Source of the DNA: Azolla caroliniana
Lineage: Eukaryota > Plantae > Polypodiophyta
Direction: 5' to 3'
Assembly (NCBI GenBank): GCA_043228905.1
Contig: JBHGNT010000001.1
Coordinates: forward strand, 22,568,001 to 22,632,000
DNA: 64,000 nucleotides
A program made the translations under genes and the position numbers. The first letter of the stretch is position 1. Every line of letters begins with the position of its first letter. The notes under the pieces were generated by a model. That model had not been told where the DNA came from. It saw nothing but the letters and a program-made list of their open reading frames with translations, and did not search any database. Of the stretch, positions 770-61,047 are shown in pieces.

Positions 770-3714
770 CTCACCCCCTCCGAACTTGCACACCCTCGTA
801 TACTTTTCCATTTAATACTTTTCGAACTTCGTATGGTCCGAACCACCTTTGAGTGAATTTCCGTATCGTTCTGTGTTGATGATCCAAACTGCTATTGTAG
901 CCGATCACCCAATCTCCTTCTTCAATCTTCCGGGGTCGTCGATGGTATTTTTTTTCGAATCATCGTTTGCTATGGAATTGTGCTTCTTGTTGTCGGCATA
1001 CCGCTTCCGCTATGTCATTTGGTCTTCCTTCAAGTTGTCATATCCGGAACTCTAGTAGTTCTTCCCGACTCATCTCTTCCTTCCATGGTAGCACCGCCCA
1101 TGTCGAAATTGTGGTTTTCATAGGCATTATCGGAGCTTGTCCAGTCATAAGTTTTGCTGGCATATAACCAGTCACGGAACTATGTGTTGATCGATGCACC
1201 CATAGTGCATACGGAAGCATCTATGGCCAAATCTTCACCTTTCCATCACATGCTTTTGCAAGTGCTTTTACAATTGGACTATGTCATCTTTTGATCTACC
1301 CGTTTGCTTCTAGATTGTATGTCGTGGTTAGTGTCAACCATACTCTATGGTTCGCGAAGAATTCCCTAGATTTATCAGAGTCATGGTCTCCCCGATCCTC
1401 AATCACTTGTCCTACGCACCCATACCTACAAAACACTTCTTCTAAGAGAAATTGGCATACTACAGAACATGTTTTCCTCCGTCGCGCCCGACCTTCTACT
1501 TGGTTCGCCAAATCCTCCTAAGTTAGCACCAAGTACTTATTTTGTCCTGTCACGGTTGGCATGGCCGTGATGTTGACCCTCCATTTAAAGTTGATTGTCG
1601 GTGAGAATGTCGAATGTAATTAATCCCGGTATTGAACTGTAGAGTAGATTTGACATTTCTTGCAACTTTCCGTGAACTCCGCTACATCCTTGTACATATT
1701 CTTCCACCAATATTTTTGCTTGATCTTTGCAAATGTCACCCATGTTCCCCGATGACCACCCCAATCGGATTCATGAAATTCAGATATTATCTATTTTTGT
1801 TGTTCCTTTGTGCCAACTCCCTGTTGGTCTTTTCGGCTCCCTCCAGATTAATCCATTGTTCAAGAATAACTTCCGGACTTGCCATTTCTTCCTTCGGATC
1901 TCGGCTCTCTTTTCCTTATTTTCCAACGATTCCTCGATTTCTTGTAGCGCTTTCCCGATCAACAAGCTTTCTCCTTCGTATTCGTCTTCTCGGAACTCCT
2001 GAATTACGTTCACCCGGCATATGTGCTCTGAAGTAAAGTAGTCTTCGGAAACTTCTTCATTATCTGATTCGGCTACGTTGTTTCCAAACCGTGCCTTTGA
2101 TAACATATTTGCTACCACATTGTTGTTTCTTGAGATGTGTTGTACCTCTGGATTAAGCGACTTTACATATGCAATCCATCTTAGGATAGCAACATCCGGT
2201 ACCGTGCAACATCGCATCATCCCGAGTATCGGAAGACAATCCGTTTCGATCATTACTTTGGCTTCGATCAAATAATCCTGATCCAATTTTATAGTCGACA
2301 TGACTCCCCATAATTCTCTTTTGACTTGTGGATATCCGCGTTGCCTTTTGTTAAGAACCTTTGCTCTGAATATCTTGAGCCATCCGGATCAACTTGGTTG
2401 ATGGGCCATCTGATCCCGATTGGACTTGTATCAACTGTTACTATGATCGGTCTGTCATAGTTCAGCTTCTTAACCGCTTCCGCTCTCCATAGTGCTTTCT
2501 TGAGCTTCTTCACGGCTTTGGTGTGCTCCGGATTCCATTTGAACCTTTTCCCCTTCCAGAGCAAGTTAGAGTGGGTCCATAATGTGTGCATAGTGCGGAA
2601 TCCATATGTGATAGAATGCACATGCCCCAAGAAACCTGTGGACTTCGAATTGTGACTCGCATATTTCATTCATGGCTTCAATTGCATCGATCTTGGCTAG
2701 TGTCGGTCTTCCACCGTTGGGCCCACATAATGTCCGACTACCAGTATCTCGTCTTGTCCTAACACCGATTTTTCTCCTTAGAGTGTTAGGTGCACATCTT
2801 CTAACTTTTGTAGCACTTTCTCACAATCACAAATATGGTCAACTATGAACTTTTGACATCCCCGATCATCCATAGTCTCATCCTTTTTTTCCACCGCACA
2901 TCCTTTCATTGGAATGTTATTTAAGAACGACATTGTTATCTCCGGAATGTAGTCTCGATGCACCTTGTTCATTGCATTCATCATATATGCGGCCGAGTTC
3001 GTCCGGACACATCCAGACTAATCCTATCGGTCTCTACATTGTAGTGATATCCCGACTATCCATGTCTAGTTGAAATTGGTCATATCCAGAGTATAGGTCT
3101 TCGATAGAGTATATCGCACATCTGGAAAATGCTTCCACAAATTCATCCACTATCGGACCGAGTCCGGAGTTTTGGATCGTGACCTTGTTCACTGGTTGCA
3201 AATCTTGAATGAACCAGAGTGACCCATTCTTCTTCGGAACCGTAAACCATCGATTTGAGTACGAAGCGTGTGATGGCTCTAGAATCCCCATCGCCACCTT
3301 CTCCCTGAGCAAGTCAATGATTTTCAGAATATTTGCTTGTGGCACTAGAATCGGTTTCAGGTTCCACGACACATGATCAATTGTGAAGATCACCATCGGC
3401 TCCACTATCTTCGGGTCAACACACCCTATCTCTTTTGATGTGAATGCGAATACTTTTCCATGTTGCTCCAACATCTCACAGAATGGCTCTTCTTCATTTT
3501 GTAAGAGGAACTCGCCTCCACCAATCTAGAGTTTCTTTCGAGTCTCATCCGTAAATGTACGTCCAATATCCATGGACTTCCGAAGTGTCCGATATCCCGA
3601 GACTTCTTTCCTCTTTTGTTCACTATTGGTGGGTAATGGTCCCGCAAACGGTTTCACCTTCTTTTCCACGGTCTTATATTTTGTACATACAATTGATTCT
3701 TCTTTGGGGAGTGA

Positions 3715-4781
3715 TGTCGTGAAGATTTTCGGCAATGGTGTGAAAATCACATAAAATGTACAAAATCGAGTATGAATCACATAAAACAATAATAGTGAAA
3801 ATAACATTTTAAATAAGTTTAATATCTAAGTACAAAATGATGGAGGTCTTCATGAGCTTTCGAATGCACTTTATTACATGAGAAACGGACAACTAGATGT
3901 CAAGATATGAGGGTATAAAGTTTGTGAAAGTAGAAGAGAAAACTGTAAGATATCCCACATAGGCACGACAAATACGGCTCCCATCATATATAAGTAGAGC
4001 AAAAGCTATTATCTTTGTGTCTATGTGTGGAGCATAGAGAGTTCAAGGTAACTTGAACTAAGAGTGGAGGTGGCCTAGCCATTTGTAAAGGTTTTGGCCA
4101 ACTAAAATCGGACCAGCGATGGAGCCGGCAAAGCGACAATGGCACATCGGCAACCGATGAGGTGGCAGCCACCTTTAACCGGCGGCATCCGGCGAACTAG
4201 TCGGAAACCGACATCGGACGACTAGATAAATAAATATATAAATATATATACATATACAAGGAGGGCAAGTAAGGATTCAAACCTTGCAACTCTAAGTTAG
4301 GACTCAATTGGCTTACCACTAAGCCAAGATATTTAGTTGAAATTATATTTCTATCATCGTACTTTTACATGTAAATTCTTATGCATGAGAGCTAAAATAA
4401 GTGACATGGTTATCATGCACCACATGCAATACACGAGCGCCAAATGGCAAACATGCATCATATGCATGGGGGCATCTATAAAAGGATGGATGAAAATGTA
4501 TTATGAATCCATGTATGAACTAAGAAATTAATGAGAAGAAAATTCATTGATGATATATCTTGTTTCTTAAATCAAGAGTTAAAATCTTAATCTCAATATC
4601 TCTCTCTTGGCCATATCAATCTTTCTCAATCTAAGTCAAACATTTAATCTTAATCTGTTTCTCTCTCTCAATCTATCCTAAATACTTTCTCACTAAGCTT
4701 GGTGTGAACTTCGATCAATCCGGTCCAGAACCCTGGCGGTTCCGCCTCGGGATCCGGGCCTAGTGACGGATCTTCACGACA
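3715..4781 (+). mobile_element. Solo LTR, Phygy-like family (~1067 bp)
   Basis: Terminal inverted repeat TGTCGTGAAGA..TCTTCACGACA; flanks GTGA/GCGC (degenerate 4-bp TSD); removing the LTR plus 4 bp restores the host pol frame (EMGPDALPKEESIVCTKYK); U5 similar to G5 LTR. Confidence 0.85.
4262..4332 (-). other. tRNA-like module in solo LTR U3
   Basis: Minus strand: TGGCTTAGTGG (A-box, D-arm GCTT/AAGC) ... CAAGG-TTTGAAT-CCTT (T-arm, B-box GGTTTGAATCC); no intact acceptor stem. Confidence 0.7.
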
Positions 4782-5698
4782 GCGCATCCGGCCCCATTTC
4801 CGCAATGATCTCATACATCTAGACCAATTCCACTGGAACTACCCGGTCTCCCTGACTATTCTCTTCCGCAAGCTCTTCAAGTTATTTTACCGTGCTTCCG
4901 TAGAACACTTCTTCGACTACTCGTGTGATTTCTTCTTCTTCTTTTATGATTGATGCAGACTGTAACTCATCCTACATCTTCAAAAATTCTTTCCTCATTT
5001 CTCCGGACACGACCATGTACGTAGATGCCCCATCCGGACTGATTCACACTTGTTTCGCTCCGAGAGTTTTTTTCATGTGTGGGGTATCAGGGCTTCTCGA
5101 ACTATCACTTCCCCACTCCGCAATAGTCCGCTTTAAAAATCTATTTTTGTTTGGGACAAGTTCTCTCTTTTGTTCCTTTCGTGATTCGATGACATAGTCA
5201 AGAATTGAACAATTTTTCCTCCGCTTTGGCTCTGAATCTTTGCAAAAGTTGCTCCCCTGTCAAGCACCTTTGTTTCCATCCATGAAGTCGTGATGAAGGG
5301 TTGCCCAAGGATCACAAAATGTGAGACCTCATCTTGCACAAAGAAATTTTGGTCAATCTCCACATATCCAATCTTCACCATCACATCTGGACAAGCCGCA
5401 AATAGATATTCCGTTGCTTTTGTGGTTGCCCGGATCTTCCATCCATGACTGGTGTTAATAAGCCACTTCCCCTTCCGGTAGAGCTCCTTGGACATCAGAT
5501 TGATCTCTGATCCATGATCAATCAATGCAACTACGAGCTCTTTGATGTTTCCAATTCGGATCGGAGTCTCTGTAGCTGCTCGTGCCCAATGTGGCTTTGT
5601 GTAGTGGAAGTTCGGAATTTCGTCCTCTGCTTCCGTGTCATTCATTAGAATAATATTCACATTCACCCTTGGAACATTTGAATCTTCTGTAGCCTGTC

Positions 5699-8600
5699 TC
5701 TTTCTTTTTACGAGATCCACAAGGAGATTGTTTGTAGCCTTGCAATTCTCGGAGGGAAAATTCCACCTGACTATCAAGGATTCTCTCTTCAAACACCTTC
5801 TTTAGATCCGTTTGTTGTTCGATGTCCGAGGTGAGTTTTAATTCCAGAATCATTTTCCTTTTTCCTTTCCCTTTAGAGTTCCAACTCTCTGGTGTCTTTG
5901 ATGGTCTGACTGCATCATCCGTGCGCCGTCGCTTCTCATCTACATATACCTCATGTAATTGACATAAATAGTATACGCTACTTATATCTACGGAGCACTC
6001 CCATCCCATAGCTTCCCGGATGCCTTCCGCTGTGCTCCGGATTTCATCACAGTCAATTTTCTTAGAGATTTCTAGCGCTTCTAGTTAGAAAGATGCCTAC
6101 GCTCTAGATGTCTCACCCACACGTATTCCTGTGGTTGTTGCATAATTGCATTTTTCCGCTATCTCCTCCTCTAGGACCTTCTTCATGCCACATTTTCAGA
6201 AGTTCGGCCGGAGTGGCTTTCGAGAGTCCATTGAATGGATCCTATTTCCCTCATAGTAGATGAGATTCTGTCGTAGAGCCTCTTTGTGTTCATCGCAATC
6301 CTTTTGATCATGTTCGGTGCTATCACACCATATGCATCGACGGTCCATATACTTGGAATTTGAGGGATAGTCTCAAATCGACTTTCCAATGCCGAAAACA
6401 CATCGAGGACCTTCAGCCCCTTGTTTGGTGTTTCCAACCAATCTTTGAATCCCCTCCATGTTGCCTTGGAGGAGTCCTTGATAGCGAATGTAGTCTTCAG
6501 CGCTTCTTCAAACGCCACCCACGTCGGATTTTGTTGTCGTATCCCATGGATACTCCCTTGAAGCCCATTCATAGCCACCCCATTGAAGGAGGTCACTTGC
6601 GATCCTTCTGATATCCCGCATTGCAGCATCTCCACCTTGTAGTCCCGTAGATAACCCTTACGTGCAAAAACATTTTCTTACAAAGTTTCTACAAGTTAAG
6701 AAACAAACGCCCTACACCCTCCTCCTTGAGACGGGATCGCTTCCAATTGAGACCATGGCCATGGAAAGGGTTGTGGAATACATGTTGAAGGTTCAAAAAA
6801 AAAAAAGTCCCTCACATCAACTTCCTAGAATTGCATGGGAAGCAAGCAAAAAGATCCAAAAGATGCATAAAAGCAAATTTTGTGTTCCGGTTGGATGCAA
6901 GATATAGAAAAATGTTTTGGTAGATGGGATCACTAGATTCCTCAGTAAATGAGGCCTTTTTGCAACGCCACTGTATCATGACATGGGACAAATGTGGAGG
7001 CTCATGCTTCACACATTATACTACACATGTTGCACCTAACTACAAAACCATATTCTTCGCGGAATGGGGAAACCATATACATCGATACATGTTAGAGCCC
7101 ATCCCGTTATCTACCATTCAAACCATTGCTTCCATGCGACTTAGCTCACATGCATTGTGATGTGAGACATGGCGTTGGGGCACAAGTGATGAGAGTGGCC
7201 AGCTATGCACACTTTGTCCTAAACAAGTTCGAGAGTCTGAGTATCACACTTTGATACAATGCTCTACCTTTGATCATATTCGACCATGTGTTCTACATCT
7301 CTTCGACCGAGCCCAATCCTTGCACGAATTTCTCTCACAACCACAATGTGCACTCTCGATTGCAACATTCATTGGTAAAGTTCTTGAACATCGCAAGTCG
7401 CTACCCACTTTCACACGTATCACGTGAAATGTAATATTTTTGGTCTCATAGGTCATATTTGACCTCCGAAGACGATAATCTATCTATCTATCTTTCTTTT
7501 TATGAGATCCACAAGGAGATCATGGAACTCCTTCTTCGCAATTCCGAGCAATTCTCGGAGGGAAAATTCCACCTAACTATCAAGGATTCTGTCTTCGAAC
7601 ACCTTCTTTAGATTCATTTGTTGTTCAATGTTTGAGGCGATTTTGAATGCCAGAATCGTTTTCCCTTTTCCTTTCCCTTCAGAGTTCCAGCTCTCTGGTG
7701 ACTTCGATGGTTCGACTACATCATCCGTGCGCCGTTGCTTCTCATCTACATACACCTCATGTATTTGACATAAGGGGTATACATTATTTTTATCTACGGG
7801 GCACTCCCATCTCGTAGCTTCCTGGATGCCTTCTCCAGTGCTTCAGATTCCATTAGAGCTGGTTTTCTCGGAGATTTCTAGCCCTTGTGGCCAGAAAGAT
7901 GCCTTCACTCTAGATGTCTCACCCACATGTATTCCCGTGGTTGTTGCATAATTGCATTTTGCCACTATCTCCTCCTCTAGGACCTTCTTCATGTTGCCTT
8001 TTCAGAAGTTCAGCTGGAGTGGCTTCCGAGAGTCCATCGAATGGATCCGATTTCCCTCATAGTAGATGAGATCCCATCGTAGAGCCTCGCAATCCTTCCG
8101 ATCATGTTCGCCTCTATCACACCATATGCACCGATGGTCCATATACTTGGAATTTTAGGGTCAGTCTTTTGATTTTGTCACCATGGCAATTTTAAGATTC
8201 TCCATCTCCTTTAGCAACTTCTTTACCGTGGTTACATCGATTCCCTTCTGGGCCGTAGTCTCTCGAGCCCGTGTTGGTGGTCTTCTACGAACCTCGGCCT
8301 CAACGTCAGTTTCGTAGTCCACTTTTCTTCATCACCGAGCCATTGGCCCCTCTTTGTATATCGATCGAAGATGTCCCACACATTTTCCCATGTATTGGTG
8401 AGGCCACTCTCAGTAGTCATATCCTCTAGAAGCACTCCAAGATCTTTCCAGTACCGGACATCCATAGCTCGTAAGAACATGATCACTTTGTGTGGTATGA
8501 GGATAGCTTGATCTCTCGCAGACAACCTCCCGAATCAACTTTCCAATTCCAAAAACACATCGAGGACCTTCAACCCCTTGTTTGGTGTTCCACCCAATCT

Positions 8601-8810
8601 TTAAATCCCCTCCACGTTGCCTTGGAGGAGTCCTCGATAGTGAATGTAGTTTTCAATGCTTCTTCAAACGCCGCCCACATCAGATTTTGTTGTCGTATCC
8701 TGTGGATACTTCCTTGAAGCCCATCCATAGCCACCTGATTGAAGGAGGTCTCTTGCAATCCTTCTGACATCCCACATTGCAACATCTCCACCTTGTAGTC
8801 CCGTAGATAA
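5699..8810. repeat. Direct duplication of G1 gag segment (5699-6654 and 7491-8810) flanking the LINE
   Basis: Both copies start TCTTTCTTTTTA(C/T)GAGATCCACAAGG and end GTCCCGTAGATAA; the left copy has an internal deletion of ~365 bp near 6370. Confidence 0.85.
6655..7492 (+). mobile_element. 5'-truncated non-LTR retrotransposon (LINE; RTEX/L2-group-like ORF2 C-terminus)
   Basis: Translates ..MRLSSHAL*CETWRWG..LCTLC..ESEYHTLIQCSTFDHIR (C-terminal CCHC knuckle); 3' stem-loop AGGTCA-TATT-TGACCT; (TATC)n tail 7478-7492. Confidence 0.75.
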
Positions 8811-9229
8811 TGTGACATGTCCTTTCCATCAAATTGCCCGTTCTGTTGCAAGAGTCGCTCTACTGCCGCTGGGACTTCTGACATCGCACGTTGCTCGTAC
8901 AACATTTGCTTGAACATTGTCATCATGTTGCTTGCCTCTTTTTGATTCTCCATCTCCTTACCACCCGGTTGCACATCAGGTTCACAAAATGTGTCATGCC
9001 TTTCGGCGGCGGATCATTGCGTGACTAAGGTGGAAACCGTAGAGATTATGGAGGAGGAGGAGGAGGAGAATTTTAAAGGTAATAAGAATTCGAATGGATT
9101 GTAAGAAAGAGACGTAGAAAACCGTGTGAATTCCACGAGTGTATTATATTAGATTAATATTTAGAAATGCTAATAAAACTCAAGAATCAACACCAACAAT
9201 ACATCTTTCTCCTCTCCTCATATAGTGAT

Positions 9230-11365: not shown

Positions 11366-12974
11366 GGTTCAGCTGTAGGTACACACCGGAGCAAAACGGT
11401 GTGGCCGAAAGGAAGAACCAGTCGGTTTTTGACGCGGCAAGGGCAATGTTGGAGGAGAAGAGCATGCCCCATTTCTAGTGGGCTGAGGCGGTTCGGATGG
11501 CCGTCTACATCCAAAACCGGATTAGTGACAAGGTGTTCGCGCATGAGCTGTATTTCGGGTGCAAGCCGAATTTGAGACACCTTCGAATATTCGGTAGCAT
11601 TACATATGTGCATGTGCCGGATGAGAAGCGGAGGAAGTTGGATGCAAAGTCGGAGAAATGCATCCTAGTCGGTTACTCGCATGAGCAAAAGGGGTATAAG
11701 TGTTATAACCCCCAGATGAAGCAGGTCTGAGTTAGCCGGGATGTTCAAATTTGATGAGACGGAATCATGGTATGCCTTACCGGCTCCGACTTCCGACCCT
11801 GACCCAATACCGGAGGATGGGGCTAGTGAGCCTGAACCGGTCCAGTTAGAAGACGCAGGGTTCAAGACTCCAGATATGAGTCCAGAATCATTTCGGTTAA
11901 GTGGACCGAATGAGCGGCTGAGTTCAGGATGACCGGTCGGATGAGGAACCGGCGAGTAGTGGAGACTCTGCCGTGCTCTCCCCGCGCAAGGAACCGAGGA
12001 GCCGGTTCACGCACAAAGAGAAGGGGAAGAAGAAAATTTTGGAATATGAAACCGGAAATGTTGAGTCGGATCGGAGCGAATCCGACTCCAGTAAGGATGA
12101 AGGCGGATCTTCGGAAACGAAGTTCAACTTGGCCAAGAAGTGCCCAAAACCGGGTAATACCAAGTTACGCCGGTTTTCCCGCCTGAAAAACCCCGTTACG
12201 CGATATGGGTACAATGAGTACATGGCGCATCACTATGCGTACATGACCAAGGTGGCGGAAGTGCGTGAGCCGGAGAGCTACGCAGAAGCGGTAGAGGACG
12301 CAAATTGGCGTGCCGCTGTCGTGGCGTGGCTCGCCTAGAAGCGTAGCGTTGTGTAGACAAAAGATATCGTGAAAGTGAGGAAGGAATCACTGGGATTATG
12401 GACGGAAGAGACGAAAGAGTAGAGATAGATAAATAGTGATCAACAAGATATGACAAGATAGGATATAGAATGATATTTGAAGCAATAAAAGAGATTTATA
12501 ATTATTTGATAAAAGAGTTACAAAATGATTGTGCACATCATTGAACCTCTGAACTTTGTCTTGCAAGGTAATCGCTCTTCTCTTTCTTGATCGTAGACCA
12601 TTACAATCTTCACTTCAATATTTTGATGAAGATAAGGCTCGAACCGCCTCCTTCTTGTTGAGAGTTGACCACCCCGACCGCCAAGCTAAAGCTCCACGTT
12701 TATGTTAAACTTCTTCCCTTCTTTCTCTTTCTTTATGGTATCTCTTATGAAATATATAATTTGATTGATATCTCATACATATCTCCCCTTTGATCTTCTC
12801 TTTCACCATTTAAATAGGTGCCCCCATGCATATGATGCATTGGAGGGTACAAATCATGCATGTAGTGCATGAAATGCATGTGATGCATGATAAACATCTC
12901 GCTCATTTGAGCTTTTATGTATGAAACAATATATGCAATAACAATAAACATGAAAACATAATCTTAAAGAGAAA

Positions 12975-13195
12975 GGGCCTGTCCTAATGCTAGGTGTGTC
13001 AACTTTGGTGTATGAGGTTGTGGGTTCGAGTCTCAAAATGTTGTTGAATACAACATACAACTTTATTTTTATATCATGATGCAAATCCTTTATGTAATAT
13101 AAAGTATGCTTTATTTTATGTATATTACTAGTATAGAGTAAATGGTAAGATTTGAGAGTCATAGGGTGGGGTTATTGGTTCAAGTCCTCTCTTGT
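12975..13195 (+). other. Two tandem tRNA-like modules in LTR U3 (also at ~16383-16603 in the other LTR)
   Basis: GGGCCTGTCCTAATGCTAGG...GAGGTTGTGGGTTCGAGTCTCA (B-box 13023-13032) and TAGAGTAAATGG...GGTTCAAGTCC (13134-13187). Confidence 0.6.
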
Positions 13196-13425
13196 TCGTG
13201 TAATATAATATATTTATCTATATATATATATATATATATATATTATTTTTCTTTACATATATATCTAATATTATCATATGTGTTGTTAATATTATATTTA
13301 TATATAAAACATTATCAAATGTTATTTTAGTTACGTATTTATCTTATTGTAGATTTTTAATGTGAAGCTTTCGTACTTCACGACATCCACCCCCTCTAGA
13401 CCTGCACATCCTCCGGCATGTGCCA

Positions 13426-31779: not shown

Positions 31780-31832
<53 letters not shown>

Positions 31833-47600: not shown

Positions 47601-50201
47601 ACCGTAACCGACCAGTTCTTCGAGTGCTAATCGGCTCTTTGCTGGTTGGGTTTGCATCTCATCGAATCGGTCCTTTCCGGTCGACTCGGAGGGTTTAGGG
47701 TTTAGGGTTCATTATCTTCTTCTCCGACTCCCAGTCGGCAAGAGTCTTGTCCTCCATAAAGATAATATCTCGACTCTGGAACACTTTCTTGTCCACGGGG
47801 TCCCACACTCGGTAGCCGAAACTCATCATCGCCTTATTCGAGGAATATGCAAGGCCGGGACTTTGGATCCAACTTTTCTCTCTGGTCCTTTGCCACATGC
47901 ACGTAAGTGACACACCCGAACACCTTCAGGTGTTAGTAAGACACTTCCTTACCGGTCCATACTCTCTCTGGTGTGTCTCCGTCCAAGGGCACTGAGGGTG
48001 ATCTGTTTATCACACACGTCGTTGTCGACAGCGCCTCAACCCAAAACTTCTTGGGTAACTTAGCATGTGCTAGCATACTCCGTACCCTCTCCATTATGGT
48101 CCGGTTCATCCTCTCGGCCAACCCATTGAGTTCCGGCGTCTTCGGCATGGTTAATTTGAGTCGGATTCCCTTCGAGCGGCAATACTCCTCGAACAGCCCC
48201 CGATATTCTCCTCCGTTATCTGCTCGAAATGCCTTCAGCTTTCAAGCGTTTTCTCTTTCCACTCTTGTGTGGAGCTCCTTGAAGACGAATAACACCTGAT
48301 CCTTCGTCTTCAATGGTGTGGCGCACAACTTCTGCCTGTGGTCGTCTATGAACGTCACGAAGTACTGTGATCCTGCATGTGACTTCGTGTCCACTTGACA
48401 CACTTTGGTATGCACCAGCTCCAGTGGTGCATTACGTCTCATCGGTGGCCATGAGAGGAAGGAGGTCTGGTTTTGCTTACCGGCCAGGCAGTCGGTGCAC
48501 TTCTCAAGATGCACGTCTTTCACCAGAATGAGGTTGTCATCGGCAAGCCTCTTCATCCCCTTCTTGCTCATGTGACACTGTCTCTTGTGCCACAGCTCAC
48601 CAGTAGTGTCGGAAGCAACGTTCACTTCTTTCGGGCATAACTGGGCATTCATCAGTTACAATGTGTTGACCTTCCGGGCCCGAGCCACTATCAAGCTCCT
48701 CTTGCTGAACTTCATAACACCGTTTTGGATGCTACCCGTGTAGCCTTCATCATCTAGCTGACCGGCTGATATCAGGTTCAGCCGAACCTCCGGAACATGT
48801 CGGTCATCCTTCAACAGCAACTTGCATTCGGTTGGTGTTGTTAGCCACACGTCTCCTATGTTGACATTTCAGCATGTACCTTCATTCCCCATTCAGACAC
48901 AATCGTGCTCACCGGTTGTGTAGGATGAGAAGCATTTCCGGTTTGAGGTCAGGTGGAACGGCGCTCCGGAGTCGACAACCCACATTGTCTCGTTGCTGGC
49001 AAGGTTCAACTCACTCACCTCGGTGATGAGCATCAACTCTTCTTCACTTGCCGTGATTGCCGTCGTTCCCTTCCGGTCCGGTCCTCTCCGGTCTTTACCG
49101 TTCCAGTTTGGTGACCGCTTCGAATTAGTACTGTCGGTTTCCTTGTCTTTTCGGAAATGCCGACAATTCTTCTTGAAGGGTCCCGGCTCGCCGCAATAGA
49201 AGCAAGTACGCCTCCCCCTTGACTTTGACAGTGTCCCCGACTTTTCCCAGTTTTGGGGACTCCGGTTCCTTTGTCTTCCGCGTTCCGATTCGGTAAGGAG
49301 CACCTTGGAGTCGGAGCTCGTATCCTTGTCTTTCCGACACGCCTCCTCATCTAGCAAGCTCGACTTGACTCTTGCTAGGGATATCTGTTTTCCTTCCGGC
49401 CCGGCGTTGCCCAAAGTGACAACTAACGTCTCCCAGCTATCTGGGACGGAACCGAGCAGGACCAATGCGAGTACCTCATCGGTGAGAGGTCCATCCAACG
49501 ATTTTCCCTGGTGAATCAGCCCCTAGAAGGCATTCATGTGCTCCGCCATACTGGAGCCATCTTGGTACCGGAGTCTTACTAGTTTCTAGAATACCGAAAC
49601 CCTATTAACAACATTATTGTTCTCAAACATAATGCCGATCTTCTCCTAGAGCTCATGAGCCTTGCTCTCTTCATTGAAGTTGTTGTACAGGATCATGTCG
49701 ATGAAGCACCGGATGTATGCCGTTGTCTTCATGTGCATCACCTCCCATAGTGTGGCATTGAACTTGTCCGGTCTTGTGTTCCCGAACTGAACCGGCAACC
49801 AAAGATCTTTGACCACTAGCATATCCCTCATCTTCGACTTCCACACAGAGTAGTTGGAGCCGATGAGCTTGAACATGCCGTTGAACGATTCTTCCATTTC
49901 CTGTGTTGTTCGCCCTGATACTAGATTTTAGGGAAATATGTGGAATATTACTCGGCCACAACCGAGTCTCAAATCATGTCGTTTAGAATCAAAACACCGA
50001 GAATGGGAATGGAAGGTAAATACATGTATATGCACACACACTATAAACAAGAGAGTACACAAGATGTGAACGTGGAAAACCCTAAGAGGGAAAACCCACG
50101 GACTCCAAATTATCACTATGTCAAAGAATACAACAAGGGGCACAGAGGCAATGACCTCTTGCTCACACTCTTCGCCTGGCGGCGGTTACAACAGAGAATC
50201 G

Positions 50202-50238
<37 letters not shown>

Positions 50239-52607
50239 ACGCTCTGTACAGTAGTTACACCAACACAAAGAATGACCAACACAACTTACTAAGTGTTTGC
50301 CCTAGGTCATATTTATACTAATATGACATTAGGACTATTTACAAATGTAGCCCCAATGGGCTCTCAGAAACATATTTACCTATATGTCCCTTCATCTGTT
50401 GAGAGGTTCTCACCAGGCCTCCATCATCTGGTTCTCACCGGGTCTTCCTTGCCGGGTACTCATCATCCGGTTCTCACCGGGGCTTCATCATCCCATCCGG
50501 AGGGACCGAAATCCTAACAAATGGGAGGAGGAAGCAAACCCTACCACCGTCGAAATAGCACCAACGCAAGAGGAGAGGCAGGCTAACTGAGTTGATTCCG
50601 GAGAAGCGCCATCTATGGCCGAACAAGAACAACAAGAGCCGAACCACGGTAGTCGTAGGCCTAAGCGTCGACGGCTGGATCGCAAGGATGGTCGCGGATT
50701 GGTAAAGGATTTAGATGCACGGGTGGAAGATTGCATGCCCACGGAGCTGACATCTACATTGGAACTCATCCGCAAGCCACAACCAATCATAACAGCACAA
50801 TTGCAACGTGGAAAAGGCAGAAAGTGAAGTGTTACACTATCTAAACATGTTGGATATGGCCCATGAGTTTGGCGCATTGTTACAATTCGGGACGACATAT
50901 GAACTCATGGAATTCTTGGCGACACAACATATCAAGGTGTCCCAGCGAATGGCCGAGGAGCACGCTGAACAACAGACGATTGAGCGTGCACTAACACAGA
51001 CGACGGAGAGTGAAGATGAGAGTCCACTCGCGAAAGTGCGTCGGAAACGTAAGCATGGGTCTGGTGGGTTGGAATTGAATTGCCTCCCCTGAATGTTGCG
51101 TTAGTGGAGGTTCATCGAGAGTTAGCAAAAGTGAGCCTGGGTGCCAAAGATATGGCAATCAAAAATAAAATTGTTTGGAAAACAATAAAAGTGACCCAGG
51201 AACAATTGAACAAGGTGCAGGAGCGCATCACGCAACTAGAGAACAATGTGGCCAGTACGCAACCCCCTTCGACCCTTGCCCCGCACGACACGGAAGTTGA
51301 GACGCTAAGGGAAGAGGTGGAGCCCTAAGCAGCACTCACGACAAAGGCAAAAAGGACTATGGTGCTGGTTGAAACAGAGATTGACCAGCTCAGATCAGAG
51401 CTCCGCCAATCATCTGATAGAGAAGCAGACATTAGGGCAAAAGGACACAAGGCAATCAAAACACTTCAAGATAAGCTCGATGCGGAGGGAGCGGCACATG
51501 GCCGAACAAACGAAGAGAAGGAAAAGTTGTAGGAGGAAGCAAGCAAAAAAGAGGTTGTCATTACGATGATACGAGAATTAGCACAAAAGAAGGCAACGTA
51601 TGAAGAGCAACTCGTACATGAGCATGAACAAACCAACCAAGTTGAAATACGCCCGAATAATGAAATGGGCTGGCTCAAGGAACTGCACTTGAAGGAGTCC
51701 TAGATCTGGGCATAGATGAAGACCCACTAGGAAGATGCGGTGATAACCAACAAAAGGAAAATTGAGAATTTGAAGAAGGCCCTGGAGGAGTCGCAAGCTT
51801 GCTCCCAAATACAGACGGGCCGGATTCGCGTACTCCTCCAAACAAAGCAGGAACAATTTATGACACAACTACAAGCAACCTTGGATAAAGGTTGGATGGG
51901 CAAAACAAGCGGCCGAACTCCACATCTACCAAGTGGACTGGGAAAATTGACACAAAGAAGGTAAAGGCTTCTATAAGCTAAATGAAGACAACATCGCCGC
52001 GGTACAAGAAGACCTAACGCAGGACTATCACGCATTAGCCGACCGGCACATAGAGGAGATAACACAATTGCTGGAAGATTTTAGCGAAAGTTAGGAAGAT
52101 ATCTTCCACCAGTTGTGCGCGATCGGAAGCAAGCATCAAAAGGCGGAGGAATTGAATAGGGTGGAGGCTATTACCATACAGGACAGCGACTCCGTAGAGC
52201 AAAACAAGCCTCCAATTGATCCTAATGACGCTTTGGAGGTAATAGCAACGCCGGAGGCCCCCACGCAGGAAACATGCCCGGAAGAGTCACGCCCATATGT
52301 CTGTCCATGCCTAGTGATAGAGCCACCGTAGAACGAGCCTCCAACCGATCCTAATGACGCTCCGGAGGTAACAGCAATGCCGAAGGCCCCCGCGTAGGAA
52401 ACATGCCCGGAAGAATCACGTCCATATGTTTGTCCACGCCCAGCAACAGAGCCGCGAAGAAACGACGTTTCCTCGCCCACTGATGGCGTACCAGCCAAGC
52501 CCTCCACGGAAACACTGCGAGAAGAGGACCATGCGGAAAACAATGCACCGATAGAGCAAAACATCAGCGAGCTCACTCAAGTCATGCCAGCGGATGATAA
52601 CGCATGA
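44687..52607 (+). pseudogene. G4 extra ORF downstream of integrase (44687-45283 + 50525-~52607)
   Basis: MPIPISSALRQWLLEKGF..VDWGVITG..LATMEW|EEEANPTT joins across C4; then RRPKRRR and long coiled-coil stretches; stops present. Confidence 0.65.
45284..50519 (-). mobile_element. C4: full-length degenerate Tork-like copia, relative of C2
   Basis: TSD AATGG; LTRs 45284-45845 and 49927-50519; PPT 45846-45856; degenerate iMet PBS ~49912-49923; gag-pol fragments 45860-49897. Confidence 0.92.
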
Positions 52608-53566
52608 TCGGAGCTGAACACTCTTGACATTTTGGATGATGACTAAGGAGAGGGTGGGTTTGACGTGCCACGACATTGTCCCACAGGCATGCCAAGTGTT
52701 GTCCACCGAAAGCAGACAAATGTGAATAACGCATGGGAAAGAAATGTATTGTTATATTAGGAGCGTTAAGTAACGCGTGCAACGATTCACACAGGAAGCG
52801 TAACCGACTAAGCCCTGTGTATATAAAGGGCAGAAGAATAGTGTAATAGCTAGCGCCTTATTGAGCATAATCGTTAATAGAGTTCTATCTTCTCTGATAT
52901 TGTATCTCTCATTTATTCCCTGTTATCTCTATGTGACTGCATAAGCGTAAGCATATAAGGTAAGTACGTGGTGCATAGTTACGCACATTAGGAGCTTGGT
53001 TGAAGTTGTCTCCTGTTCACTCCCTTAGTAAATACGCTCTAATAGTATAAGTCACTACGCCAAGCGGGGTACATGTATCCCTACCCCCTTGCACCACGAT
53101 CACCTTGATACCTACCCCAAAGGACTAAGGGTAGGTTGTGTTCCTAACTGGCAACACTCATCTAGTTCACAATGGGAGCCACAAGAGGGATGTAGCCTCT
53201 TATTGCATTTCCAAATGCAGTAATCCATGGTGCAGACAAATGTCGTGGGAAGACCATAAACAATTGGCTACTGGTAGTTTGATTGAAGAGCAAAATATAT
53301 ATTGGATGTGGTGCCTTTGAAGAAAAACACAATAATATTGAGCGTACCAAAAAGTTTGATGGTGATCAGGATGTTGAATGGTGGGGTAACTTCTTTAGTC
53401 ATCAACATACGATTTTAGATAACCACTTTGCCGGTTACTGGTGACTCCAAAATCTATTCAAGTGGACTATTGGTGGCCCATCAATGGTTAGCATGACTAA
53501 TTTACAATCACTAGATAATCCTATATTGAATAATCTAGTTCATCCACAACAAAGAGATATTTACGT

Positions 53567-56500
53567 TGTTGTGAAAAATTCGTCACTTTGTGCGGATCGT
53601 GAGTTGGAACCGCCAGGGTTATGGACCGGAATGAATTAGAGCTCACACGCACAACACAATCAAGATTTACACATAAGACAAGTAGATGAAAGAAAACATT
53701 AGTTTATATCAAAATAATAGATTCATTATAATTTTTGAATCATGTTATAATGGGTTGGATATCAATATGAGAGGTATTTTTTGAAAGAAGGGAGAAGAAA
53801 AATGGAGAAAAGAAGAGAGTGGAATATATATAGAGTTTCTTTGTTGATCATGGCCCCGTTATGTTTAGTTGCATGCGTCCACACATGACCTTTAGTTTAG
53901 TTGCATGGCCTCAAGATTCAGTTGCATGTGTCCACACATGGTGTTTACTTTAGTTGAGCAGTTTAGCCTGTGCACTATGAACGCTCCGAATGGCCCACAC
54001 ACTACGAACGCTCAGAACGGCCCACACACTATGGATTGCTCCAAAAGGCCCATGCACAGAATGGCCCGTGCATTACGGATTGCTTGCTCTGAATGGCCCA
54101 CGCACTTCAGATCCCTCTGAACAACCAAACGGCTTGTGCATTACGAACAACCCATGCAATAAGCCACCAAATATGAAATAATGGGTTTGAGTTCTGGTTA
54201 TATAATGTTGGATTCGATGTTGTCCTTTCTACGTGGGATATCTTACAATTCCGTTTCCCTCATCCTCTCAAACTTCATATTCACATAACTTGATACTTAG
54301 TTGTCCGTTTCATATACATGTAGTAAAATGCGTTCAGAAGCTCTTGAAGACGTCCATCTTTTCCATATCAAACCATTAAGCTAATCTAAAATAATTATTT
54401 CATTCTTTTTCATATCGTGTGTGAAGAACCACACGACATTCACCCCCACCAAACTTGCACATCCACCGGTATGTGCCAATTGTGGTAAGGTTCCTCTTTT
54501 GATTATTCTTCGTCAACCTCGATGCTAGAGGCTACATCGTCTAGAGCTTCGATTTCAAGATTTGGGCCTCTCTTCTCTTAAAGATCTTGATTCTCTTTCT
54601 TGCAATTGGCAAAGCAAGTTGAGTTCCATCTAACTTTGCTAGAAAATAGGTTGCATTGTTTTCAATTTTCTTGAGCACATATGGGCCAAACCATCGTTTC
54701 ACAAACTTTCGAGCAGTGTTATATTGATTATCAAGGCTACTATTATAGACAAGAACCCAATCTCCTTCTTCAGTTTTTCTTTGATGAAGATGATGCTTTT
54801 TATCAAAATTCTCCTTGTTCCTCAATTGAACCTAGCACAACCGTTCTATTGCCAGCTCGACATCTTCAGGCCTCCATTCTAATTGTTGAATCCTTGTAGC
54901 TAGTAAGTCTTCTCGACTCTTTTCCTCTTGCCATGGCAAAGATGTCCACGAAGTAACACTTTGCTCGATAAGCATTATTGGTTTTTGCCATAATATGAGC
55001 TCGGTCGGCATATATCCTGTAGTCGTGTTATGTGTAGTTGTATCAACCCACAATGCATATGGTAGTAATCGTGGTCAGTCCCCCATCTTTCCGTCGCAAG
55101 ACTTTGCTAGATCTTTTACAATTGGACTATGTCCTCGTTCCACCTTCCCATTTGCGTCCGGGTTGTATGCCATGGTGAGTGATAATTTGACGCCTATCCT
55201 TGAAAAGAACTCTTTAGCTTCATTTGCATCTAATTCTCCCCTATCGGCTACTATTTTACCGACACATCCGTATCAACAAATAACATCTTCAAGGAGAAAC
55301 ATACAAATCGCCGAAATTGTTTTATTCCTTAGTGCCCGACCTTCTACTTGGTTGGTGAGATCCTCTCTTGCTAGCAAGAGGTACCTCATTTGCCACAATC
55401 CCATCAGCATAATCACTATGTTTACCAACCCCTTATAATGCATTGATAATGGATATGTCAGATGAAGTCCATTCCTATGTTGAACATTCGAGTACAATTG
55501 ACATTGTACACATGTTTCTACATAGCTTGTTATATCTTTGTGAACACTTGGCCATCAATACTTCTCCTTTAACTTTGCAAAAGTTGCCCATATGCCTCGA
55601 TGAACTACCAACACACTATCATGAAATTCAGTAATTAGGGTTTCTCGATCCTGTTTCTTGCACACCACTCGAAGCGGAGTTCCATTCTTCCTCTTTGGAA
55701 ACTTCCATAAATGTCCTTCTTTGAGGAAGAACTTGTAGGCCTTCTTCCTAATTCGGTAGAAGTCTTCCTTTGACCATGATTCATCCTTTGAAAGAGAGCT
55801 CAAGTAATTGCTAATTTCGATGAATTCACCCTCATAATCTTCTACTTTAAACACTGCTAGCACTTGAGCACAAGAACCCGTAAAGAAGTTTAGGCCAACA
55901 TCCTCTTCTTTGGAGCACAAATCTTCTTCACCCTCATACCTTGCCCTTGACAACATATCGGCCACCAAATTATGCCTCCCATTTATATGTTGAACCTTGG
56001 GGTTGAGGGACTTGATATAGGCAACCCATCGTAGCATAGCAATATCCGGTGTAACACAACCGGATATCATTCCGAGAATAGGTAGACAATCAATTTCGAT
56101 TATGACTCTTGTTACGATAAGGTAGTCACGATCGATTTTAACTGCAGATACTATTCCCCATTGCTCTCTCTTTACTTGGGCATACTTTCTTTGTCTTTCG
56201 GTCAACACCTTTGCACCGAATGGGATTGCATATTGATTTTTTTCTTTGTCTTCTTGGTTTATCACCCATCCAATTCCGGTTGGGGTCATATCCACCGTCA
56301 CATATATCAGCGTACCTTCGGTGTAGTCTGCTTTGCGAAGTGCTGGAGCTTCCAATAATAGTTTCTTTAACTTTTGAACCGTGTAGGTATACTCATCGTC
56401 CCATTCAAACTTCTTCCTTTTCTTTAGTAGTCCATACAATGGTTCAACGACATGGGCATAGTGAGGAATCCATATGTGATAGAATGCACATGCTCCCAAG

Positions 56501-59500
56501 AATCTTTGCACCTCTATTTGGGACTCACATTTCTCTTTCATCTCTTGAATAGTGTTCACCTTGGATGGAGATGGCTTCTGGCCATAAGATCCACATAAGT
56601 GTCCTACTACCAATATTTCTGGTTGACCAAATGCAGACTTCTCTCCTGAAAACGTGAGGTTTGCGTCGTCAAGCTTTTGCAACACCTTCTCGCTATCCTT
56701 TATATGATCGATGAAGAATCTACGGCAACCATCTTTCTCTTCCACCAATAATCCTTTGATCGGAATGTCATCTAAGAAGGACATTGTGATATCAGGGATA
56801 CAATCCTTCAACACTTTGTTCATGGCATTCACCATGTGGGCTACGAAGTTTGTCTAACCTTGGGGTAAGGTGCACATGCTCACCAACCCGATCAGTGTCC
56901 TCATTGTCGTTATGTCTCTACTATCGACTGCCAATTGAAACTAGTCATAGCTTGAGTAGAGATCACCAATGGAATAGATTGATCTTCCCGCAAAGGCCTC
57001 GACAAATTCATCTACACTTGGACCAATTCCGGAATTTCGATTCGTCAGCTTGTTGACGGGTTGGAGATCTTGAATAAAGCATAAGGACCCGTTCTTCTTC
57101 TGCGCCGTAAACCATCTATTGGAGTAGGGAGCATTGGACGACTCAAGAATTCCCATCCTAATATTTTTCTTTAGAAGATTAATCAACTTCGGAATGTGAG
57201 CTCTTGGAACTAGTATCGGCTTGAGGTTCCAAGGTACATCCTATCTCTTGTGGAGAGAAGGCGAAGGCTTTTCCATGCCTCTCAAGCATCATCCTAACTA
57301 TTTTCTCTTCTTTGGGGAGAAGGAAGTCATCCTACCCGACTCAGAGTTTCCCTCTCGATTCGCCGGGGAAGGTATGGCCTATTGCTTTTGGGTCTCTGAG
57401 ACTCGGATCCTTGGTAACTTCCTTCATTCGTTGCCAACTATCCTCCGGTAACGGAATAGCTATTGGCTTGATCTTCTTATCTACTGTTTTATATTTTGTA
57501 TTTACTTTGACCATCTCCTCCATAACCCCTCGTCGACATTCATCGATGGCAGTATACATGTTGATAAAGTTTACCTGAATATTATGTTGCTCATGAGGGT
57601 TCACGTCCACGATACTCTCTATTTCTCCGATTGTATCGTTAAATGAGGCTTCCTCCATGACCCATGATATGTTGTCTTCTTCTTCTAATATTCCCTGTTC
57701 TTTTAACCAATGTTCAAAGTTTTGAACTTGGCGCTTCTCTCGCTCATTCAGTGAGGTCATCCCACATGCACCATTAGGTGCTAAATATATGTTTCCTTCT
57801 TGATTTCTTCTTCTTTTTAGGAACTTAAATTTTCTCGAACTATCTTTGCCCCATTCTACAATAGTCCATGTTAAAAATTTGAGGCCTCATCTCCGAGGCT
57901 ATCTCGGTTCCTCTCATGACTAGCTCGCACCGTCAAGAATTGAACCGACTTCGGACCATCGAGAAACTCCACCCGAGCGAATGTCGCTCCAATGTCGACA
58001 CCTTAGTCTCCATCCTTGATGATGTTATGTAGGGTTGCCCAAGAATCACCGAATGGAAGCTGAATCTTGCACAAAGAAGTGTTGGTTGATCTCTACATCC
58101 CCAATTGTGACTTGAATGTTGGGACATGCTCCATAAAGATCTTCCATTGCCTTCGTCACTGCATGAATCTTCCATCCATGGTTTGTGTTGATAGGCCATC
58201 TTCCCTTGTAAAATTCCGTCGACATGAGGTTAATATCTGATCTGTGGTCTATAAGAGCCACAACCATCTCTTTCTTCTCTCCAATCTTTACTAGAGTTTT
58301 GGTTGTCGCTCTCACCCAATGGGGTCGTGTATAATGACTATCCACTAAATCTTCTTCTTTCTCTCCCGTTCTTGCCATATTTATGGCATTGGTTGTCACC
58401 TTAGTAGAAATGCCCTCTTCCTCATCCGCTTGTTTTCTTTTCCGTTTGATAAGATCGACGATGGTCTTATGGAACTCCTTCTTTGCAATTCCAAGTAGTT
58501 CTCTCAATGTAAGGTCAATATGGCTATCTAGCACTCTTTCTTCAATAACCTTCCTTGACTTAGTTGTTTGTTTAATATCCGACCTTAATTTGTATGTTGG
58601 CATCGATCTATCCTTCCCCTTCTTGGCATTTTCTTCAGATGGATGTGTTGGTTCTTCGACTCTCTTGTTTGAGTTCCCATCTTCTTGATGTATGGTCTTG
58701 ATTACCTCTTCCTTCTTCTTAGCTTTTCTTGTGTGATGTTTCTTGGAAGGGCCTTCTTCTAGATCCGTCCTCTTCCACTTCTCATCCACAAACACTTCGT
58801 GGGTTTTGCATATGACCTCTGGAGAGATCGTGTTGTTATCAATCGGATCCTCCCATCCTGTAAGGTCTCGTACATGAAGGTTTGCTAGCTTTGCATCATT
58901 CGAATTAATCTTCCCTTTTTTTTGGTATTCAAGGACGGTCGTCCAAAACCCTGTTCCCGGTTTAATCATCCCAAGCTTTTCCTTCCCGATTCTTATACCA
59001 GCGGATGTGGCATAGTGTATAGCTTTGACATGGTTCACATCGACCTCATGCATGATTTTCTTGTGACCGCCTCTACCGAAATTCACTTGCAATGGTTGGC
59101 GAGTATAGTTGAGTGTATAATGTTTCCTTCCATGTAGATGACGTTTTGTCGAATTGCTTCTTGAAGGCTAACACAATCTTTCCTCGCCTGATCCATACTA
59201 TCACACCACACAGATTTATATGGGTCTTTCCCCTTCGGCCCACGACGAATCATATTAGCTAATGAAACTTATTCGAATTTTTTAGCCAACTCTTCAATGA
59301 TAGACTTCTCCATCGCTCTTTCGGTCGGCTCTCTTTGCTTTGGCACCTCAGTTGTTATTGGAGCCTTCCTTCTTTGGAGCACTGGTCCCGTTGGAATCGT
59401 CTAGCCATCACCGACGCTTGTCGAATCGATTACATGCTCTTCTGACCGCAACCCAATCCGTTACGAGATTGTTGGGTTGTGCTTTGTCCTCTAATAGACT

Positions 59501-60939
59501 ACCTAGTTCTTGTCTATCTTTTGCATCTACTGTCTTTAAGAAGTATAAAAATTTATCTCCTTCGAGAAGTGTTTGGTCGGTTCTCGGGAGATGGTTATAC
59601 ATTTGGTCAAATTCGGTGTACACTCCCGATGTGTTCATGTTCTTCCCTTTCTTTTCAATCCACTTCTTCAATGTATGACGAGTCATCCTTGATGCATCTT
59701 CAAGCATATATTCAGCCAAAAGTGCCCTTTCAAATCCCACCCATGTCATTTGGGTACCTTGAATCTCCCTTATACAGTCTTGTAACCCTATTGCCACGAC
59801 ACACTTGAAGCTTGATATTTGCTTTTTCTTCGATAACATCTCTTTGTTGCATCTCCGTCTTGTATATATAGAGAAAATCCGTAATGTTCCTTCCACTAAA
59901 TTAGCCTACTATCTCAATGGTTCGGTCGATGGCCTTGTCTAAGCTTGCATCATTATCTCGAGCTCTCATCATATGCTCGACAATAGCCACCAACTTTGCC
60001 ACTTCGTCATCTTGGGTATTTGTCGAAGAACACATATTCTAACCTTCTATTTCAAGCACTTGAATCCTTCCTACCGCCTCTTCACGTTGAATTATGTCGT
60101 GAAAAATCCGTCACTATGTGTGGATCGTGAGGCGGAAATGCCGGGTTTATGAACTGGAAGGAATCAGAGCTCACACGCACAACGCAATCAAGATTTACAC
60201 ATAAGACAATTAGATGAAAGAAAACATTGTTAGATGAAAGAAAACATTAGTTTATATAAAAATAATAGATTCTTTATAATTTTTGAATCATGTTACAATG
60301 GGTTGGATATCAATATGAGAGATCATTTTTGAAACAAGGCAGAAGAAAAATGGAGAAAAGAAGAGAGTGGAATATATATAGAGTTTCTTTATTGATCATG
60401 GCCCCTTTATGTTCAGTTGCATGCATCCACACATGACATTTACTTTAGTTGCATGGCCTGAATGTTCAGTTGCATGCGTCCACACATGGCGTTTACTTTA
60501 GTTGAGCAGTTTAGCCCGTGCACTACGAATGCTCCGAACGGCCCGCAAAAACGAACACTCTGAATGGTTTGCGCACTACGACCCGTGCACTACAAGCCGT
60601 GCACTACGAACTCTCAAAATAATCCACGCTCTACGGATCGCTCCAAAGGGCTGAATGACTTATGAAAACGAGCTTGTGCACTACGAACAGCCCGTGCACG
60701 AAGCACCCAGATATGAAGTATTGGGTTTGAGGTCTGCTTATATAATGCTATAGTTCTGTGTCCCTCATCTTCTTAAACTTCATACTCACATAACTTGATA
60801 CTTAGTTGTCCGTTTCATATGTAATAAAATGCGTTCGGGAGCTCTTGAAGACATCCATCTTTTCCATATCAAACGATTAAGCTAATCTAAACTAATTATT
60901 TCATTATTTTTCATATCGTGTGTGAAGAACCACACAACA
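53567..60939 (-). mobile_element. G5: near full-length Phygy/Selgy-like gypsy element
   Basis: TSD ACGT (53563-53566/60940-60943); LTRs 53567-54438 and 60095-60939; PPT 54439-54450; gag 59408-59990, protease 58046-59092, RT-RH 55555-57186, IN 54541-55550; PBS partly deleted. Confidence 0.92.
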
Positions 60940-61047
60940 ACGTGCGAGCTAGAATATCGCATGATGCAGAGGCGAGATGGCAAGACAATCTACATGAGCT
61001 ACAAGTTGGTATGTTGGTTGCAACATTAGTTGGGGGTGATAAGTTGG

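What the first reader, a model, noticed from the sequence alone, without database searches (positions are those of the whole stretch)
3711..60943. Phygy-like gypsy elements insert at CpG: all seven 4-bp TSDs are NCGN
Seen: TSDs are CCGC (12313/16790), CCGT (18080/35530), ACGT (18752/19460), ACGG (27861/32427), ACGT (53563/60940), CCAG/CCGG (42180/43462) and GTGA/GCGC (3711/4782). Five are perfect NCGN. In the other two, one copy keeps the CG and the other shows CG>CA or CG>TG decay. These are seven insertions from different LTR families into different hosts. The two copia TSDs (CCCTC, AATGG) have no CpG and act as an internal control. The integrases end in WFGPY with no chromodomain. Inference: the integrase is sequence-specific for a central CpG, possibly methyl-CpG. 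That would aim new copies at methylated TE DNA without a chromodomain and would explain the deep nesting. I cannot check whether this is already published.
Basis: partly seen in the sequence, partly recalled or inferred. Interest (0 to 1): 0.85.

Follow-up and report, generated by a model that had tools for sequence, protein, structure and literature searches.

The report
Phygy retrotransposons inserting at CpG sites
Seven jumping-gene insertions in this plant DNA sit on a CG pair (intact in five, kept in one copy in two), a habit already published for the Phygy group they most likely belong to; the idea that their integrase senses methylated CG remains untested.

Summary
All seven 4-bp target duplications are at the stated coordinates. 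Six host reading frames and one primer site rejoin exactly across them. Five are perfect NCGN against a 4.9% background, and two keep CG in one copy. Related elements in metagenome contigs give 18 CG and 2 TG among 23 LTR starts (background 4.8%).

Neumann et al. 2019 (PMC6317226) state that Phygy elements prefer NCGN; their table gives 186 elements, '4 bp (100%) (NCGN)'. The window's elements meet the Phygy features I could test. Clade phylogeny could not be tested.

One refinement: T is rare at the outer positions (2 of 54 half-sites, about 30% expected). The rule is therefore VCGB, a narrowed form of foamy virus VYRB. This points to DNA bending plus base reading by the integrase.

Methyl-CpG reading is untested. 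All local targets are probably methylated, so the window cannot separate the two readings. Two relatives sit beside host genes. CpG targeting is not needed to explain the nesting, because copia elements nest here too.

The parts
3711..4785 (+). G: solo LTR 3715-4781 with imperfect TSD GTGA (3711-3714) / GCGC (4782-4785), in the pol gene of an older Phygy-type element H
   Evidence: start equals PPT-anchored starts of L053, L071; end like E's end; host frame restored
12313..16793 (-). A: young non-autonomous element 12317-16789 (LTRs 12317-13385 and 15725-16789, one substitution apart; gag ORF 13426-15702 with DUF4100; PBS 15703-15719), TSD CCGC, in a copia element
18080..35533 (+). B: gag-pol element 18084-35529 (5' LTR 18084-18736 lacking about 28 nt near its start; 3' LTR 34862-35529; 6,598 bp without its nested inserts), TSD CCGT, in the same copia as A
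18752..19463 (+). C: solo LTR 18756-19459, TSD ACGT, inserted inside B's primer-binding site
27861..32430 (-). D: non-autonomous element 27865-32426 (LTRs 27865-28620 and 31649-32426, 96% alike; PBS ending at 31644), TSD ACGG, in B's reverse-transcriptase region
42180..43465 (+). F: solo LTR 42184-43461, imperfect TSD CCAG / CCGG, in the integrase of a different gypsy lineage
53563..60943 (-). E: decayed full-length element 53567-60939 (7,373 bp; LTRs 53567-54438 and 60095-60939, 88% alike), TSD ACGT
34571..34792 (+). C-terminal part of B's integrase: GPY motif followed by 63 residues ending in an acidic tail, stop about 70 nt before the 3' LTR; no chromodomain
54541..54831 (-). C-terminal part of E's integrase: weak SH3_Tf2-1 match, 45 residues after GPY, stop about 100 nt before the LTR; no chromodomain
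19565..25143 (+). control: copia element 19570-25138 with 5-bp TSD CCCTC, nested in B's gag
45279..50524 (-). control: copia element 45284-50519 with 5-bp TSD AATGG, nested in the second gypsy lineage
140..9229 (-). H: older Phygy-type element, host of G; both outer ends are lost, so it gives no TSD and was left out of all TSD counts

Best explanation
These are several families of Phygy-type gypsy retrotransposons whose 4-base target duplications are centred on CG, likely because their integrase itself selects that pair as it bends the target DNA, probably without needing it methylated. Shown: 4-bp TSD, central CG, rarity of T at the outer positions (VCGB), no chromodomain. Inferred: the intasome cuts with a 4-base stagger and unstacks the central step, as foamy virus integrase does at VYRB. 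CpG is a pyrimidine-purine step, and added base contacts would narrow YR to CG. Candidate contact residues (inferred, not mapped) are the conserved Gln331, His332 and Lys337 in the integrase's C-terminal domain and Arg159/Glu161 beside the second catalytic Asp (P0121 numbering). After insertion the duplicated CpGs are likely methylated like the rest of the stack and decay to TG/CA, which would give the two imperfect pairs. Nesting likely follows from a TE-dense, CpG-rich region plus selection, not from a methyl reader.
For: TSDs and restored host frames. Chance about 9e-7. Other copies of family B's LTR end run on into consensus ACGT (7 contigs, run X1) and CCGG (7 contigs, run X4) where the reference reads TAAT. 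In metagenome contigs, 18 of 23 LTR starts have CG and 2 have TG, against 371 of 7,700 (4.8%) background. T at the outer position in 2 of 54 half-sites against about 30% expected, P about 1e-6. Serrao 2015 (PMC4422553, passages): the PFV consensus holds VYRB; 4-bp-TSD viruses disfavour T at 0 and A at +3; local preferences are largely independent of chromatinization. The nearest solved structures are PFV integrase by sequence and by fold. TSD CpG loss of 4 of 34 copies matches the 14.7% expected from LTR CpG decay. Other gypsy-type integrases have CG-rich target specificity: Ginger1 CCGG 75%, CCGT/ACGG 24%; ZAM CGCGCg, with direct binding in vitro (abstract).
Against: No in vitro or de novo insertion data. 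Membership of Phygy could not be tested by phylogeny against the reference set. The model's pLDDT over the candidate loop is only 58-72, and I did not superpose it on the PFV target complex. The PFV residues named by Serrao contact the edges and flanks, not the centre. All seven window targets and 8 of 20 relatives' targets are in TE DNA, which methyl reading would also predict. The metagenome sites are single ends from short contigs, mostly from one set of assemblies, so they are not independent hosts.
Confidence: 0.78

Rival explanations
1. The integrase reads or strongly prefers 5-methyl-CpG, which would aim new copies at methylated TE DNA without a chromodomain.
For: All 7 window targets lie in DNA with methylation-type decay: C/T differences between LTR copies at CG 68 of 445, CHG 36 of 297, CHH 48 of 1,252. 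No chromodomain. Phygy is reported enriched in centromeres of the liverwort Apopellia (PMC12885004, passages).
Against: In a TE stack nearly every CpG is likely methylated, so the window cannot discriminate. L048's ACGT site lies about 500 nt upstream of a PPR ORF, and L015's ACGC site lies about 800 nt from a PIP5K exon in 31% GC DNA. Bryophyte expressed genes carry little CG methylation (PMC10952607, passages), but the host lineage here is unresolved and these are two short contigs. VCGB matches a known shape rule that needs no methyl group. Copia elements nest here without CG.
Confidence: 0.14
2. Pure shape reading: the integrase only wants the most bendable central step, with no base-specific contact, and CG wins for mechanical reasons.
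For: The outer-base rule matches PFV's VYRB. The closest structures are PFV integrase.
Against: Other YR steps are nearly absent. No TA centre occurs among 7 window TSDs and 23 starts, and TG/CA occur only at the rate expected from decay. TA, TG and CA are also pyrimidine-purine steps (established knowledge).
Confidence: 0.05
3. One reading: ends were placed to make TSDs match, or CG belongs to the element's own ends.
For: Two of seven TSDs are imperfect; small sample; three are solo LTRs.
Against: Ends are fixed by LTR pairs and by independently anchored ends. Internal LTR junctions carry PPT or PBS, not CG. Host frames include the CG. Independent contigs agree. The published record agrees.
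Confidence: 0.03

Closest known systems
Phygy clade (non-chromovirus Ty3/gypsy), Neumann et al. 2019, PMC6317226 (read: passages, section 13, supplementary table of lineages)
   Same: 4-bp NCGN TSD; no chromodomain, no extra RNase H, no extra ORF; PBS of the type I recall as tRNA-Trp (Phygy 81% tRNA-Trp); coding sequence fills the internal region.
   Different: Defined from Physcomitrium patens only. Elements here are slightly shorter (6.6-7.4 kb against 7.7-10.0 kb) and include two non-autonomous forms of about 4.5 kb. The VCGB refinement is not in the text or table I saw; their element-level Additional file 1 was not among the files I could see.
4-bp TSD class of plant LTR retrotransposons, Jedlicka et al. 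2019, PMC6911290 (read: passages, section 8; supplements listed, not read)
   Same: 4-bp TSDs have a GC-rich centre (1,722 elements); Phygy mostly makes 4-bp TSDs and is often nested.
   Different: Pooled over families; no CpG or methylation analysis ('cpg' 0 occurrences in the main text).
Ginger1 DNA transposons, Bao et al. 2010, PMC2836005 (read: passages)
   Same: Gypsy-type integrase with GPY/F motif; 4-bp TSD CCGG (75%) or CCGT/ACGG (24%), all within VCGB.
   Different: DNA transposons with TIRs in animals; narrower target; no RT or LTRs.
Prototype foamy virus integrase, Serrao et al. 2015, PMC4422553 (read: passages)
   Same: 4-bp TSD; central pyrimidine-purine step; T disfavoured first and A last (VYRB); nearest solved structure to this integrase.
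   Different: Weak preference for any YR, not near-absolute CG; about 20% identity.
Drosophila ZAM, Faye et al. 2008, PMC2527525 (read: abstract)
   Same: LTR element whose integrase binds a CG-rich target (CGCGCg) directly.
   Different: Insect errantivirus; six-base consensus, not a single central CpG.

Membership tests
Phygy | Groups with P. patens Phygy in RT-RH-INT phylogeny (the primary criterion) | not testable with these tools
   No reference Phygy sequences were at hand. Named homologs among the best 120 were from Riccia, Adiantum and Ceratopteris, none from P. patens.
Phygy | 4-bp TSD with NCGN | tested here: met
   5 of 7 perfect, 2 of 7 with CG in one copy; 18 of 23 relatives' starts.
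Phygy | PBS for tRNA-Trp | tested here: inconclusive
   One conserved PBS stands behind the 5' LTR of A, B, D and H (0-4 mismatches) and is deleted in part in E. Its assignment to tRNA-Trp is recalled. Two scans for a matching tRNA in viral and prokaryote collections found nothing, and the supplements seen give no PBS letters.
Phygy | No chromodomain | tested here: met
   No chromo family at E <= 0.1 in 8 proteins; 45-75 residues with an acidic tail after GPY; 71 and 103 nt from stop to LTR.
Phygy | No additional RNase H (separates it from TatI, which also has 4-bp TSD and tRNA-Trp) | tested here: met
   Intact relatives L066 and L016 show one RNase H region and no second RNase H match at E <= 0.1.
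Phygy | No extra ORF; polyprotein fills the internal part | tested here: met
   L066 and L016: gag (727-730 aa) overlapping pol (1,174-1,180 aa) over a 5.7-kb internal part; B and E have the same layout.
Phygy | Size 7.7-10.0 kb (descriptive; called of little weight by the authors) | tested here: not met
   E 7,373 bp; B 6,598 bp net, with a deletion in its integrase; L014 unit 7,305 bp. Slightly short.
Selgy | tRNA-Ala PBS, 4.4-6.7 kb, 4-bp TSD without a noted motif | tested here: not met
   Autonomous units are 7.3 kb or more when whole, and the TSD has NCGN; the PBS is not tRNA-Ala by recall.
Chromoviruses (Tcn1, Galadriel and others) | Chromodomain at the integrase C-terminus | tested here: not met

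The most novel reading that the evidence does not exclude
The Phygy integrase is a methyl-CpG reader. It uses conserved C-terminal loop residues to favour 5mCpG at the centre of the bent target, steering new copies into silenced TE DNA with no chromodomain. It may belong to a wider CG-targeting integrase group with Ginger1 and fungal relatives.
Probability: 0.12. Interest if true: 0.75.

Novelty: already known. Interest (0 to 1): 0.2.

Why it matters
The core claim repeats a published feature of Phygy elements, so it is a good independent confirmation, not a discovery. Two modest additions: the rule holds across many divergent LTR families in what appears to be another seed-free plant, and it is VCGB, which ties it to the retroviral 4-bp bending rule. 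If the integrase did prefer methylated CpG, it would be a way of targeting silenced DNA without a chromodomain, which my searches did not find described. P. patens with its met1 mutants would make that directly testable.

Tried and rejected
No whole genome is held, so no genome-wide TSD count was possible.

The first read-laying on a 4-kb stretch showed no junction rows because the tables were cut. The second, on 111 bases, gave junction consensus but hid 28 rows. For family C's left end, most shown rows end at 18751-18753, which keeps the CG. The reference itself has ACGT there, so that count may be biased and is not used as a number. The row at 18756 in X4 is the element's own polypurine tract.

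Element H was left out because both outer ends are lost. A second gypsy lineage (39167-53158) has a truncated 5' LTR, so it gives no control TSD.

In one search, 59 of 123 PBS matches had under 450 nt upstream. Of the other 64, 30 showed no start motif, 12 had a PPT in front, and 22 gave 23 candidate starts. The three non-CG/TG rows (L079, a degenerate PPT; a second weak hit in L009; a weak hit in L073) were kept in the 18-of-23 count and dropped from the 20-site set used. The start motif was taken from PPT-anchored starts, but one variant was added after one search had shown L074.

No clear motif lies outside the four bases (34 half-sites). A PPR search did not resolve the host lineage (35-45% to ferns, lycophytes and Sphagnum among the top hits). 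Scans for a tRNA matching the PBS found nothing. The P. patens polymorphism table lists 67 RLG3 sites without gene distance or lineage, and I could not tie RLG2 or RLG3 to Phygy.

Literature: 10 searches. NCGN appeared only in PMC6317226 among the 20 listed. Searches listed no paper on an integrase that prefers methylated CpG, judged from listings only. Most subscription papers are not in the library.
Full report
What was checked. The finding claims seven gypsy insertions with 4-bp duplications centred on CG, and proposes that the integrase reads CpG, perhaps methyl-CpG. No whole genome is held, so the work rests on the window, on metagenome contigs, on contigs of public runs and on papers.

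The observation. All seven pairs are at the stated places: CCGC (A), CCGT (B), ACGT (C), ACGG (D), ACGT (E), CCAG/CCGG (F) and GTGA/GCGC (G). A, B, D and E have LTR pairs that are 99.9, 94, 96 and 88% alike. C, F and G are solo LTRs. Their ends agree with ends anchored by a primer site or polypurine tract elsewhere. Removing each insert and one TSD copy restores the host: copia frames for A and B, B's own RT for D, an integrase frame for F, an open frame for E, and a pol frame for G. C splits B's primer site. The CG is therefore host DNA. NCGN makes up 4.9% of window 4-mers, and five perfect CG centres have a chance of about 9e-7 at local rates.

Small corrections. The seven inserts lie in five hosts, not seven. 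The integrases run 45-63 residues past GPY. For F and G the CG state is an inference from the mutation spectrum: protein evidence does not fix the CG in either.

Independent sites. Laying public contigs on the end of B's LTR, where the window reads TAAT, gave loose-end consensus ACGT (7 contigs, X1) and CCGG (7 contigs, X4). Of these, 64 had enough upstream DNA. Thirty showed no start motif, 12 had a PPT in front, and 22 gave 23 candidate starts: 18 with CG, 2 with TG and 3 other, against 4.8% background. Two more single ends (L109, L033) also have CG. These are single ends, mostly from one set of assemblies, and favour young copies.

A refinement. Among 27 CG sites, T stands at the outer position in 2 of 54 half-sites, against about 30% for CpGs in the window (P about 1e-6). 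The target is VCGB rather than NCGN. No clear motif extends further out.

What the elements are. One primer site stands behind the 5' LTRs of A, B, D and H; that it is tRNA-Trp is recalled, not confirmed. The gag proteins match DUF4100. Intact relatives L066 and L016 have gag overlapping pol with RT, one RNase H and integrase, and no chromodomain or extra ORF. Named homologs come from Riccia, Adiantum and Ceratopteris. The host appears to be a seed-free plant, but its lineage is unresolved.

Already published. Neumann et al. [quoted passage not shown] Their table lists Phygy as 186 elements, '4 bp (100%) (NCGN)', tRNA-Trp 81%, no extra domain. Jedlicka et al. 2019 found GC-rich centres in 4-bp TSDs, and mostly 4-bp TSDs in Phygy (PMC6911290). 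The window's elements meet the structural features I could test. They are slightly short, and the phylogenetic criterion could not be tested. Neumann's element-level file was not among the supplements I could see, so VCGB may be visible there.

How it most likely works. The nearest solved structures are foamy virus integrase, by sequence and by fold of a predicted model (mean pLDDT 76). That enzyme makes 4-bp duplications, unstacks the central pyrimidine-purine step and prefers VYRB. Its local preference is largely independent of chromatin (PMC4422553, passages). VCGB is a narrowed VYRB. I infer the same bend, plus base contacts that cut YR down to CG, since no TA centre was seen. Conserved candidates are Gln331 (64 of 65 rows), Lys337 (66 of 66) and His332 (58 of 67) in the C-terminal domain, and Arg159 (70 of 74) and Glu161 (67 of 74). 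Glu161 aligns with the PFV Ala that follows Asp-Gln-Gly, which I take by recall to be Ala188. None of these contacts is shown. Ginger1 transposases (CCGG, CCGT/ACGG) and ZAM integrase (CGCGCg) show that gypsy-type integrases can carry CG-rich specificity.

Methylation. LTR copies differ by C/T at 15.3% of CG sites, 12.1% of CHG and 3.8% of CHH, so the stack is likely methylated throughout. TSD CpGs are lost at 4 of 34 copies, in line with the 14.7% expected. This explains F and G but says nothing about the state of the target at insertion. Of 20 relatives' flanks, 8 are TE DNA, 10 are unassigned, and 2 lie beside host genes: about 500 nt upstream of a PPR ORF (L048) and about 800 nt from a PIP5K exon (L015). 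That weighs mildly against a strict need for methylation. Against my reading, all seven window targets are in likely methylated DNA, and Phygy is reported enriched in liverwort centromeres. The nesting needs no methyl reader: copia elements with CG-free TSDs are nested too, and CpG density ranges from 20 to 100 per kb among the elements.

Earlier scan notes. One unchecked note (e1-10582392) reports NCGN TSDs in fungal retrotransposons and pointed me to Ginger1, which I then read. I did not test the fungal claim.

Verdict. The VCGB rule is a small addition. The methyl-CpG idea is untested and less likely than plain sequence and shape reading. Interest 0.2.

Noticed in passing
window 18084-18111 against 34862-34889: B's 5' LTR has lost about 28 nt just inside its start, between two GTCG-like repeats, yet keeps TG and the TSD.
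   Followed up: yes
window 18741-18755 and 19460-19466: Solo LTR C landed on a CpG inside B's primer-binding site. The shared primer site holds two CpGs, so these elements can disable each other's priming.
   Followed up: partly
window 12317-16789 and 27865-32426: Two non-autonomous forms of about 4.5 kb. A keeps an intact 758-aa gag ORF and near-identical LTRs (very young). D has a gag start and a GC-rich (60%) internal part with no Pfam match.
   Followed up: partly
window 27190-27200; L066, L016: gag ends at a GGATTTTT run overlapping pol, a likely -1 frameshift site. Neumann's table lists Phygy's ORF organisation as not determined.
   Followed up: partly
L004, L014, L024, L027, L033, L035, L037, L053, L067, L071, L079: PPT-LTR-PBS arrangements (one LTR shared by two internal parts): tandem elements or collapsed repeats in short-read assemblies.
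   Followed up: no
window 39167-53158: A second gypsy lineage with two zinc knuckles in gag, a different primer site and a long 3' region. Its 5' LTR is truncated and its 3' LTR is followed by CTCA, so no TSD can be read.
   Followed up: partly
window 5699-6654 and 7491-8810: The gag region of element H is duplicated (83-90% alike) with about 800 nt of unassigned DNA between the copies.
   Followed up: no
window 53160-53562 and 60944-61050: E's host has an open frame across the empty site, but its family was not identified.
   Followed up: no
L048:1-1986; L015:66-1068: Phygy-type insertions about 500 nt upstream of a PPR ORF and about 800 nt from a PIP5K exon.
   Followed up: partly
window 19570-19833, 24352-24664, 36087-36285: Copia LTRs carry a 54-bp tandem repeat with varying copy number between LTRs.
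   Followed up: no
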